Shown piece by piece: positions 15,001 through 18,000 of a stretch of 64,000 nucleotides of DNA (positions are counted from its first letter, which is position 1; each line of letters opens with the position of its first letter). The stretch lies in assembly GCF_055900595.2 (NCBI RefSeq), contig NZ_CM148325.1, one strand, 5' to 3'. Position numbers: made by a program.

Positions 15001-18000
15001 CTGGAAAAAGACGGCGTTGCGCTGACTATCGCGGACATTAAGGCCAAACCAGGAACGCAGTTTGTCCTGAGCCAGCGTACCGAACTGGAAGCGATTAACG
15101 CGTTGCAGGAAACCTTTACCGTTAGCGAACGCAGTAAAGAAAGCGGGATGCTGGAACTTACCATGACCGGTGATGATCCCCAGTTGATTACTCGTATTCT
15201 GAACAGCATCGCTAACAACTATTTGCAACAGAATATCGCTCGCCAGGCGGCGCAGGATTCACAAAGCCTTGAATTCTTACAGCGCCAGTTGCCAGAAGTG
15301 CGCAGCGAGCTGGACCAGGCGGAAGAAAAACTCAACGTTTATCGCCAGCAGCGCGATTCGGTTGACCTTAACCTGGAAGCCAAAGCCGTTCTTGAGCAGA
15401 TTGTTAACGTTGATAATCAACTCAATGAGCTGACCTTCCGCGAGGCCGAGATCTCCCAGCTGTATAAGAAAGATCACCCAACTTATCGTGCGCTGCTGGA
15501 AAAACGCCAGACGCTGGAGCAAGAACGCAAACGCCTGAATAAGCGGGTATCGGCAATGCCTTCCACTCAACAGGAAGTATTGCGTTTAAGCCGTGACGTA
15601 GAAGCGGGCCGTGCGGTATATCTGCAATTACTTAACCGCCAGCAGGAGTTGAGTATTTCGAAATCCAGTGCGATTGGTAACGTGCGGATTATCGACCCGG
15701 CAGTCACTCAGCCGCAGCCAGTGAAACCGAAAAAAGCGTTGAATGTGGTGCTTGGTTTTATTCTTGGCCTGTTTATTTCGGTGGGTGCCGTGCTGGCGCG
15801 TGCGATGTTGCGTCGTGGTGTAGAAGCACCGGAACAACTGGAAGAGCACGGCATCAGCGTTTATGCCACTATCCCGATGTCCGAGTGGCTGGATAAGCGT
15901 ACCCGTCTGCGTAAGAAAAATTTATTTTCTAATCAGCAGCGCCATCGTACTAAAAATATCCCCTTCCTGGCGGTGGATAACCCGGCGGATTCTGCTGTGG
16001 AAGCCGTACGTGCGCTACGAACCAGTCTGCACTTCGCTATGATGGAGACAGAGAATAACATTCTGATGATCACCGGTGCGACGCCAGACAGTGGTAAAAC
16101 GTTCGTCAGTTCAACTCTGGCGGCGGTGATCGCCCAGTCCGATCAAAAAGTGTTATTTATTGATGCCGACTTACGTCGTGGTTATTCGCATAACCTGTTT
16201 ACCGTGAGTAATGAACATGGCTTGTCGGAATATCTGGCAGGGAAAGATGAGCTCAACAAAGTGATCCAGCATTTTGGCAAAGGAGGCTTTGATGTGATTA
16301 CTCGCGGTCAGGTGCCACCTAACCCGTCTGAACTGCTGATGCGCGATCGGATGCGTCAATTACTGGAATGGGCGAACGACCATTACGATCTGGTGATTGT
16401 CGATACGCCGCCGATGCTGGCGGTGAGCGATGCTGCGGTCGTGGGGCGCTCTGTCGGCACCAGCCTGCTGGTTGCGCGTTTTGGCTTGAACACCGCCAAA
16501 GAGGTGAGCTTGTCAATGCAGCGTCTGGAACAGGCTGGCGTTAATATTAAAGGCGCAATCCTCAATGGTGTGATTAAACGCGCCAGCACCGCTTACAGTT
16601 ATGGCTATAACTATTACGGTTATAGTTACTCCGAGAAAGAGTAAAACTGAAGGTAAGGTGGCCGGATGCGGCGTGAACGCCTTTTCCGGCCTACGCATCA
16701 GACAGTTCTTCGTTTGTCATCAGCTTCAGAGCATTCAGGTAACTGAATGCTCTTTTTTTATGCATTACAAACTGCACGCCGGTATGCGTGCTTCATTCAC
16801 GATTTGCGTAAAACCGGCCAACGAACACATGCCCTGCGCGTTTCGCTCTTCACATCCTGCCAGGGTCAGTTTCACCTCTCCGGGCGGCGTATTTAATGAT
16901 AGCGGCGTTTTATCACGCATCTGCTGTAAAGTCTGGAAGACCAGCGAAACCTGAATCCAATGGCTGTTATCGCTTAGCCTACGCCAGCGTTCAAACACCA
17001 GTTCACCCCCTGGCGGTGTGTTATCCGGCTGACCTGGAAGCGTCCAGTTGAGCTCCAGTGCGCCGCCGAGATTTGCCAGATTAGTATCGTGTCCGGCGAT
17101 AAACAGCACTGAAGTGGGTAATGTCACACCATACACCTGTTTTTGCGGTGGATGGGGCATCAACGCTGTCATGATCAAATCCAACAACGGGGTGGCACGA
17201 CTGCGGGCAACCTCTGGCGTGCGTTGTAGCAAATAAAACTGCGCGTTATGCAGGCTTAGCAAGGTGTTCCACTGGTGTGAATCGGTGATCCTTCCCCACC
17301 CCGGCTCCGGCATTCCCTGTGCTTGTTGCAGGAGAAATATCTCCGTCAGCATTGACGCCAGGCTTACCGCACCGGTTAATGAGACATTGTCGGCGCTCAC
17401 CTTGAGTTCCGATGGTAATACCTGCGTTAATGAACAGCTTTCGTCCTGTTTCTCACGGTTAAGGCACAAGTTTGATTGTGGGAAATTAAGCACCTGTTCC
17501 AGTTCGCGAAACGCCGTTTGCCGATGCCCGGTAAAGTCAGCAATTGACCCTCCTGCCCTGCTGAGGATCGCGTCAGTCACGTTCGCGTTATCCAGTTGGC
17601 AAATGCCAGTTTTTAGAGGATTAAATAACGGATCGGGACTGGACGTATCTGCCTGGGTATGTACGGTTATTGCACAGTCAGGTGCCAGCCCGGCGGCGAA
17701 GGCTTCGCCTGTTTTACGGGTACGCTCGTCGACATCAGCAATAATCGCGACCTGACCAGGCTGCGGGCAGCCCTTTTTCGCCAGCAATCCGTCAGCCACC
17801 AGACGCTGGCGTTGGTAATGCCCGAGATAAGCGATTAGCTCACCCCCGCGCGGTGTCAGCCAACCCAGTTGAACCGGCCAGGTTGGCCATGCGTCTGGGG
17901 TGACATCCTGCATGAGTTGCGTGGCTTTGGTGGGCGCACGCACACCATGACGACTGACAATCACCACACTTTCCAGCTTCAGCTCCGGCTCACTCTGAGC

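What the first reader, a model, noticed from the sequence alone, without database searches (positions are those of the whole stretch)
16661..16759. REP element plus strong terminator in the etk-appA gap
A canonical REP (16661-16694) is followed by a hairpin with T6 (16728-16759) in the 120-bp gap between the convergent etk and appA, where transcripts from the capsule cluster and the app operon meet.
Basis: seen in the sequence. Interest (0 to 1): 0.15.

Follow-up and report, generated by a model that had tools for sequence, protein, structure and literature searches.

The report
Known REP and etk terminator hairpin
The gap between the convergent E. coli genes etk and appA holds one ordinary REP repeat and a hairpin terminator, and published K-12 transcript-end maps already show RNAs from both strands ending at that hairpin, so the finding is real but routine.

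Summary
The window is E. coli chromosome. etk (+) ends at 16644 and appA (-) ends at 16765, leaving a 120-bp gap. A single REP lies at 16661-16694, matching 33 of 34 consensus bases, with none expected by chance. An 11-bp hairpin lies at 16728-16753 (-17.7 kcal/mol) and is followed by a T run to 16759.

The T run exists only on the etk-sense strand. It is therefore the intrinsic terminator of the gfc-etp-etk capsule operon, not a symmetric two-way terminator. Published K-12 data agree. Term-seq places an etk-sense 3' end on the last U of the tract. A published list of bidirectional terminators, apparently SEnd-seq, places appA-sense ends 3 nt past the same hairpin.

REP and hairpin are near-invariant in the 3,738 of 5,426 complete E. 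coli genomes that carry the gap. About 1,570 genomes and four sister Escherichia lineages lack an ~8.3-kb gfc-etk block that includes both elements; there cspH and appA overlap.

Minor variation: T7 here versus T6 in K-12, and a 5-nt duplication that moves the REP from about 10 to about 15 nt after the etk stop codon.

Verdict: already known, low interest.

The parts
14464..16644 (+). etk (tyrosine kinase), last gene of the gfcABCDE-etp-etk group 4 capsule operon; stop codon TAA at 16642-16644
   Evidence: ORF list; RefSeq annotation of matching genomes; 99.7% identical to K-12 Etk over 726 aa
16650..16659 (+). Tandem 5-nt duplication AAGGT-AAGGT between the etk stop and the REP. K-12 has one copy (AAAGT), which puts its REP 5 nt closer to the stop codon
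   Evidence: Alignments. By hit lengths and identity bands, the long form is in roughly a quarter and the short K-12 form in roughly three quarters of the 3,738 genomes with the gap
16661..16694 (+). Single REP (palindromic unit). The core helix 16660-16666 pairs with 16685-16691, and the extended helix starts at 16658. The GTAG-first orientation is on the - strand
   Evidence: 33/34 match to consensus with 0 expected by chance; fold -22.7 kcal/mol; sub-threshold Rfam hit to REP-derived naRNA4; second stem pair is G-C here, G.U in K-12 and A-U in O157
16695..16727 (.). 33-nt spacer between REP and hairpin, with no assigned feature. Conserved apart from two SNPs (16699, 16725) against K-12
   Evidence: In strain LC-1302-2020 an IS3-family element replaces everything left of about 16703 and leaves the hairpin
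16728..16753 (+). Terminator hairpin: 11-bp stem with a GUAA loop in the etk-sense RNA. Single copy per genome
   Evidence: Stem invariant in six alleles, with variation only in the loop. Median one place per genome
16753..16759 (+). T7 run (T6 in K-12), the U tract of the etk-sense intrinsic terminator. The expected etk-sense 3' end is at about 16759
   Evidence: Sequence. K-12 Term-seq 3' end at 1041921(-) is the last U of the tract, found in the LB 2.0 and M63 0.4 sheets
16725..16727 (-). Expected position of appA-sense 3' ends, 3 nt past the hairpin on the - strand, with no U tract
   Evidence: K-12 overlap region 1041920-1041954 in the bidirectional-terminator list, mapped to the window through the alignment
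16765..18063 (-). appA (acid phosphatase/phytase), last gene of the appC-appB-cbdX-appA operon. Its stop codon is 5 nt from the A7/T7 run
   Evidence: Annotation of the 100%-identical strain, transferred by offset; ORF list
8487..16773 (.). Approximately 8.3-kb present/absent block: gfc leader, gfcABCDE-etp-etk, REP, hairpin, and the last codons and stop of appA. The REP and hairpin lie at its inner right edge
   Evidence: BLAST breakpoints against genomes lacking the block. Annotation of those genomes shows cspH and appA overlapping by 13 bp. Four non-coli Escherichia lineages have the same layout

Best explanation
The gap holds two independent, ordinary elements.

(1) The hairpin at 16728-16753 plus its U7 tract is the Rho-independent terminator of the gfc-etp-etk operon. 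It ends etk-sense RNA at about 16759 and keeps that transcription from running antisense into appA. This is shown for the K-12 orthologue and inferred for this strain.

(2) The same hairpin marks the end of appA-sense RNA about 3 nt past the stem (about 16725), although that strand has no U tract. The likely causes are hairpin-induced pausing combined with head-on RNA polymerase collisions, or exonuclease trimming back to the hairpin. The 3' end position is reported for K-12; the mechanism is inferred.

(3) The REP at 16661-16694 is a single Y-type palindromic unit inside the etk 3'UTR, 13-16 nt after the stop codon. Its probable effects are modest. It is a second stable hairpin that blocks 3'-5' exonucleases and attenuates appA-sense read-through. 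Because of its closeness to the stop codon it may also dampen Etk translation. All of these effects are inferred from general REP biology.
For: Geometry and sequence.

Stability: hairpin -17.7 kcal/mol (etk sense) and -16.7 (appA sense); REP about -22.7 on either strand; the whole gap has z = -4.2 and -6.4.

Polarity: the U7 tract is on the + strand only; the - strand has A7 upstream and UGAAGCUG downstream.

In vivo, K-12 orthologue (3 SNPs, one T fewer, 5-nt deletion): a Term-seq 3' end at 1041921(-) falls on the last U, with read counts 51,879 (LB OD 2.0) and 111,719 (M63). It was labelled 'antisense to appA' only because it lies more than 50 nt from the etk stop. The bidirectional-terminator list has entry 76, 1041920-1041954, log and stationary phase, genes cbdA:appA:cbdB:cbdX:etk.

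Collision and pausing model for such sites.

Conservation: the gap is 95-100% identical in all 3,738 genomes that have it. The stem is invariant in six alleles, and the REP stem changes keep pairing (G-C, G.U, A-U).

Linkage: the hairpin is gained or lost together with etk, not with appA.

REP context: about 60% of E. coli REPs lie between convergent genes, and about 30% of convergent gaps contain one. [quoted passage not shown] 2015).
Against: No transcript data exist for this strain. Its allele differs from K-12 (T7 vs T6, C->T at 16725 beside the stem, +5 nt before the REP).

The stem is only 45% G+C, so 'strong' is an inference from read counts, not a measured efficiency.

This strain's gfcD has a premature stop at codon 96. 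That could cause Rho polarity and reduce the transcription that reaches the terminator.

No appA-sense 3' end and no Rho-termination region near the gap appear in the Adams et al. tables, so the appA-sense end rests on one dataset seen second-hand.

No REP effect has been tested at this locus. The bidirectional-terminator list shows no REP overlapping the termination region.
Confidence: 0.85

Rival explanations
1. The hairpin is a true two-way intrinsic terminator that releases RNA polymerase on its own in both directions.
For: 3' ends of both strands flank the hairpin in K-12. The hairpin is about equally stable on both strands.
Against: The appA-sense RNA has no U tract after the stem (1 U in the 8-nt flank; sequence), and a U tract is a defining feature of intrinsic terminators. 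The authors of the bidirectional-terminator work state that such elements do not terminate by themselves but act as pause sites for collisions.
Confidence: 0.1
2. appA-sense 3' ends at the hairpin are processing products. Transcription continues past the hairpin and REP into etk antisense, is stopped by Rho, and 3'-5' exonucleases trim back to the first stable hairpin.
For: There is no U tract on that strand. Rho-terminated RNAs are known to be trimmed by exonucleases (text of Adams et al.). REPs can act as partly Rho-dependent attenuators and as decay blocks.
Against: Trimming from downstream should stop first at the REP, which is more stable (-22.6 kcal/mol) and lies 3' of the hairpin on this strand. 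No Rho-termination region is listed at 10417xx-10423xx, although appA may be poorly expressed in those conditions.
Confidence: 0.3
3. The REP is the functionally important element, acting as a terminator, stabiliser or translational brake for etk, and the hairpin is secondary.
For: The REP is present in all 3,738 genomes with the gap. Stem changes preserve pairing. [quoted passage not shown]
Against: The mapped etk-sense 3' end is at the hairpin's U tract, not at the REP. The bidirectional-terminator list records no REP overlap here. [quoted passage not shown] REP pairing changes can also come from gene conversion among the many copies.
Confidence: 0.15
4. The region encodes a separate small RNA, such as an etk 3'UTR-derived sRNA that ends at the terminator.
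For: A sizeable Term-seq peak appears in K-12, even though K-12 has an IS1 upstream of gfcA. A hairpin plus U tract is the usual sRNA 3' module.
Against: No promoter-like site lies in 16000-17400. No Rfam family reaches threshold. etk mRNA is detectably expressed in K-12 RNA-seq, which is enough to explain the peak.
Confidence: 0.05

Closest known systems
REP / palindromic unit (PU) elements of E. coli, Y type
   Same: A 34-nt imperfect palindrome matching 33/34 consensus bases, extragenic, in a 3'UTR between convergent genes, and multicopy. A second copy lies at 58344-58377 and a Z-like copy in the cbdX-appA gap. GTAG lies at one end.
   Different: It is a single unit, not a BIME pair or cluster. 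The Y-type assignment comes from my memory of the consensus, not from a tool.
Rho-independent (intrinsic) terminator
   Same: A stable hairpin immediately followed by U6-7, downstream of the last gene of an operon, with an in vivo 3' end on the last U in K-12.
   Different: It is canonical for the etk strand only. The stem is moderately G+C-poor (5 of 11 pairs).
Overlapping bidirectional terminators between convergent genes (Ju et al. 2019 SEnd-seq; collision model of Wang et al.)
   Same: The K-12 orthologue is entry 76 of that list: a hairpin in a convergent gap, with ends of both strands overlapping by 35 nt, in log and stationary phase.
   Different: One side is also a textbook intrinsic terminator. 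I saw the list as reproduced in a later preprint's supplement. The attribution to Ju et al. comes from its column names and, not from the original paper.
REP325 in yjdMN (dual terminator-stabiliser; naRNA4)
   Same: REP sequence in a 3'UTR, with a weak Rfam naRNA4 match (35 bits against a 59.5-bit threshold).
   Different: REP325 is a 12-hairpin cluster between tandem genes. Here there is one unit between convergent genes, with a separate terminator 33 nt away.
REP-mediated translational down-regulation (Liang, Rudd & Deutscher 2015)
   Same: [quoted passage not shown]
   Different: It has not been tested for etk. The original paper could not be read, so I do not know whether etk is in its gene list.

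Membership tests
REP (repetitive extragenic palindromic) element | Match to the ~35-nt REP consensus | tested here: met
   33/34 at 16661-16694; 0 chance matches in 100 shuffles
REP (repetitive extragenic palindromic) element | Imperfect palindrome forming a stable stem-loop | tested here: met
   -22.7 and -22.6 kcal/mol on the two strands, with the typical internal loop
REP (repetitive extragenic palindromic) element | Extragenic and repeated in the genome | tested here: met
   Lies in the etk-appA gap. A second copy is at 58344-58377. An identical 34-mer occurs elsewhere in a genome lacking this gap (H110)
BIME (pair or cluster of inverted PUs) | Two or more PUs in alternating orientation | tested here: not met
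   Only one consensus match in the gap at up to 3 mismatches; the spacer 16695-16727 has no REP-like palindrome
Intrinsic terminator (etk sense, + strand) | Stable hairpin immediately followed by a U tract | tested here: met
   11-bp stem, -17.7 kcal/mol, then U6-7
Intrinsic terminator (etk sense, + strand) | Transcript 3' ends in the U tract in vivo | tested here: met
   Published K-12 Term-seq 3' end at 1041921(-), the last U, in two conditions. This is the orthologue, not this strain
Intrinsic terminator (etk sense, + strand) | Factor-independent termination in vitro, or insensitivity to Rho | not testable with these tools
   No Rho-termination region is listed near the site, which is only indirect support
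Intrinsic terminator (appA sense, - strand) | U tract after the hairpin | tested here: not met
   The downstream sequence is UGAAGCUGAUGAC; 1 U in the 3' flank
Overlapping bidirectional terminator (convergent genes) | Hairpin in a convergent gap with 3' ends of both strands overlapping across it | tested here: met
   K-12 entry 76, 1041920-1041954, log and stationary phase; second-hand copy of the list
Overlapping bidirectional terminator (convergent genes) | Termination depends on convergent transcription (RNA polymerase collisions) | not testable with these tools
   The model is described; nothing was tested at this locus
Translation-repressing REP (Liang et al. 2015) | [quoted passage not shown] | tested here: inconclusive
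   Window: 13 nt to the extended helix, 15 nt to the core helix, 16 nt to the consensus start. K-12: 5 nt less. The rule is as paraphrased

The most novel reading that the evidence does not exclude
The natural alleles of this 3'UTR may form a small tuning series for Etk and for insulation of appA. First, the AAGGT duplication, present in roughly a quarter of gap-bearing genomes including this one, moves the REP from about 10 nt to about 15 nt after the etk stop codon. That is the edge of the distance within which REPs stall terminating ribosomes. Second, there is the T6/T7 difference in the terminator tract. Separately, the REP and hairpin form the inner edge of an ~8.3-kb gfc-etk block that is absent from sister Escherichia lineages. 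Where the block is present, it supplies appA's last codons and stop codon, so the terminator may have been retained to shield appA from antisense read-through after the block was acquired.
Probability: 0.12. Interest if true: 0.3.

Novelty: already known. Interest (0 to 1): 0.08.

Why it matters
It matters little beyond correct annotation. The result assigns the hairpin to etk and the gfc operon rather than to appA. It also shows that a Term-seq peak labelled 'antisense to appA' is simply the etk terminator. It gives a clean, well-documented example of a convergent gap in which a one-sided intrinsic terminator also marks the 3' end of the opposing operon. The allele series (spacer duplication, T6/T7, block present or absent) could serve as natural material for testing REP distance effects and terminator insulation. 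Nothing here challenges current understanding.

Tried and rejected
- Rfam scan at a permissive threshold gave only a sub-threshold naRNA4 (REP-derived) hit and noise.
- The K-12 RefSeq feature table in this tool lists no REP or terminator features, so I could not confirm the K-12 name of this REP. 'REP90' was not found in the preprint supplement, which is truncated.
- Liang et al. 2015 could not be opened by DOI or PMC id. I relied on a paraphrase.
- The RepRanger supplements and the NAR 2022 Term-seq paper held nothing usable.
- The genome-contig scan with AppA returned only four loci, none containing the gap. No cross-species covariation test of the hairpin was therefore possible. Within E. 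coli the stem does not vary, which says nothing for or against structure-based selection.
- BIME was considered and rejected because there is only one unit.
- A promoter in the gap was rejected because no sites were found.
- Mechanical ORFs crossing the gap (16601-16954 +, 16513-16698 -) have no support.
- A terminator-like site at 16791-16774 (-) lies inside the appA coding sequence, before the stop codon, and has a poor T tract.
- I first suspected a gfcD frameshift from the ORF list. Translation showed it is an in-frame nonsense codon.

Full report
**1. What is in the sequence.**
The window is E. coli chromosome. A 726-aa ORF on the + strand ends at 16644. An ORF on the - strand ends at 16765. 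RefSeq annotation of matching genomes names them etk and appA. The window's Etk is 99.7% identical to K-12 Etk.

At 16661-16694 the sequence matches the REP consensus at 33 of 34 positions, with no chance matches in 100 shuffles. The single mismatch, at 16684, falls in the element's internal loop. The REP folds to about -22.7 kcal/mol on either strand.

At 16728-16753 there is an 11-bp hairpin with a 4-nt loop, followed by T's to 16759. Its energy is -17.7 kcal/mol, z = -5.1, and none of 200 shuffles fold as well. The T run is 7 long if the last stem base is counted.

**2. Polarity.**
The T run is on the + strand only. In the etk-sense RNA the hairpin is followed by U7. In the appA-sense RNA it is preceded by A7 and followed by UGAAGCUGAUGAC. 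By sequence it is therefore a canonical Rho-independent terminator for etk, the last gene of gfcABCDE-etp-etk, and not for appA. No promoter-like site lies in 16000-17400. No Rfam family reaches threshold; the only suggestive hit is a sub-threshold match of the REP to the REP-derived naRNA4 model.

**3. Experimental evidence from the K-12 orthologue.**
The K-12 gap is 114 bp. It differs from the window by three SNPs, one fewer T, and a 5-nt deletion between the etk stop and the REP.

- Supplementary file 1 of Adams et al. 2021 (PMC7815308) lists a Term-seq 3' end at MG1655 1041921 on the minus (etk-sense) strand.
- The printed flanking sequence places that end on the last U of the tract.
- It appears in the LB OD 2.0 and M63 OD 0.4 sheets, with average read counts of 51,879 and 111,719.
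- It was classed 'antisense to appA' only because that paper's 'primary' class needs the end to be within 50 bp of the co-oriented gene, and this one is about 109 nt from the etk stop.
- That dataset lists no appA-sense end and no Rho-termination region at 10417xx-10423xx.

- Entry 76 is this hairpin. The overlap region is 1041920-1041954, with stem AGAGCAUUCAG, 6 A's in the 5' flank and 1 U in the 3' flank.
- It was detected in log and stationary phase, affects genes cbdA:appA:cbdB:cbdX:etk, and has no REP overlapping the region.
- Through the alignment this puts appA-sense ends 3 nt beyond the stem, at about window 16725.
- The column names and the introduction of Wang et al. indicate the source is the SEnd-seq study of Ju et al. 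2019. I did not see the original.
- Wang et al. argue that such hairpins pause converging polymerases, so that head-on and trailing collisions complete termination.

**4. Comparison among strains.**
- Of 5,426 complete E. coli genomes, 5,310 match the appA end of a 321-bp probe, but only 3,738 match across the gap.
- In those 3,738 the hairpin region is 95-100% identical and single-copy, and the etk-stop-to-REP region is always present.
- In six aligned alleles the stem never varies; only loop bases do.
- The second pair of the REP stem is G-C here, G.U in K-12 and A-U in O157, so pairing is kept.
- The window's hairpin-region allele (T7, plus C->T at 16725) is rare: 106 genomes are at least 99% identical over 16695-16800.
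- The 5-nt difference is a tandem duplication, AAGGT-AAGGT at 16650-16659. By hit lengths and identity bands the long form is in roughly a quarter of gap-bearing genomes and the short K-12 form in the rest.

**5. The gap belongs to a present/absent block.**
About 1,570 genomes match only from window 16774 onward. They lack window positions of about 8487-16773. That stretch covers the gfc leader, gfcABCDE-etp-etk, the REP, the hairpin, and the last codons and stop of appA. In those genomes cspH and appA converge and overlap by 13 bp, and AppA ends ...PACALHQDK instead of ...PACSL.

The only four non-coli Escherichia lineages recovered from the species-representative genomes have the same block-less layout. 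One of them is E. whittamii, and their AppA is 88-91% identical to the window's. The hairpin therefore travels with etk, not with appA, which fits its polarity. Whether the block was gained in E. coli or lost repeatedly is not settled. The outgroups favour gain.

**6. Mechanism.**
- Shown for K-12: etk-sense RNA ends at the U tract, and appA-sense RNA ends just past the same hairpin.
- Inferred for this strain: the same applies, probably with at least equal efficiency given one extra U.
- Inferred for the appA-sense end: either a hairpin pause plus collisions, or trimming of longer RNAs back to a hairpin. Trimming alone fits less well, because the more stable REP lies further 3' on that strand and should stop exonucleases first.
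- REP role: not established at this locus. About 60% of E. coli REPs lie between convergent genes, and about 30% of convergent gaps hold one, so its presence is unremarkable.
- REP distance: it starts 13-16 nt after the etk stop here, depending on where the element is taken to begin, and 5 nt less in K-12. This is within or at the limit of the reported range in which REPs reduce translation of the upstream gene (citing Liang et al. 2015, which I could not read).

**7. Caveats.**
- No transcript data exist for this strain.
- Its gfcD has an in-frame stop at codon 96 where K-12 has Trp. This may reduce downstream transcription through Rho polarity.
- Unlike K-12, it has no IS1 upstream of gfcA.
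- 'Strong' is a judgement from hairpin energy and read counts, not a measured termination efficiency.

**8. Verdict.**
Both elements belong to well-known classes, and the K-12 orthologue is already present in public 3'-end datasets. Novelty: already known. Interest: low.

Noticed in passing
window ~8487-16773; L002 2780-4290; L011-L014 ~4290-4620: An ~8.3-kb block (gfc leader, gfcABCDE-etp-etk, REP, hairpin, and appA's last codons and stop) is absent from about 1,570 of 5,310 E. coli genomes and from four non-coli Escherichia lineages. There cspH and appA overlap by 13 bp and AppA has a different, 4-aa longer C-terminus (...PACALHQDK). No target-site duplication is evident at the junctions.
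   Followed up: partly
window 10729-12825 (stop at ~11014-11016): gfcD in this strain has an in-frame premature stop at codon 96 (Trp in K-12), so it is probably a pseudogene. All other gfc/etp/etk genes are intact, and the IS1 that K-12 carries upstream of gfcA (site = window ~8905) is absent here.
   Followed up: yes
window 16650-16659: A tandem 5-nt duplication, AAGGT-AAGGT, lies between the etk stop and the REP. It is polymorphic in E. coli: the long form is in roughly a quarter of gap-bearing genomes, and the short K-12 form (one copy) is in the rest.
   Followed up: partly
window ~8770-8830 (K-12 1050653, minus strand): Adams et al. Term-seq lists an 'orphan' 3' end in the gfc leader upstream of gfcA. 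It sits just after an 11-bp inverted repeat (CAGAGGGAAAT...ATTTCCCTCTG) that is conserved in the window. This may be a leader attenuator or a small RNA.
   Followed up: no
window ~18100-18135 (- strand): A Z-like REP palindrome (GCCTGATGAGGCGCATTAGCGTCGCATCAGGC) lies in the cbdX-appA gap. It corresponds to K-12 REP89, which is listed next to a NusG-dependent antisense termination region in the preprint's supplement.
   Followed up: no
window 58344-58377: A second canonical REP on the + strand, with one mismatch to the consensus. Its context was not examined.
   Followed up: no
L006 (NZ_AP027764.1) vs window 7617-10905: The strain whose etk-appA gap is 100% identical to the window lacks window 7617-10905 (cspG/cspH side through gfcA-C, with gfcD truncated). 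It has prophage-like genes abutting a truncated torS, so it is not the same strain as the window.
   Followed up: partly
L009 (NZ_CP091756.1) 120-278: In strain LC-1302-2020 an IS3-family element replaces etk and the REP up to about window 16703. The hairpin and appA remain intact.
   Followed up: partly
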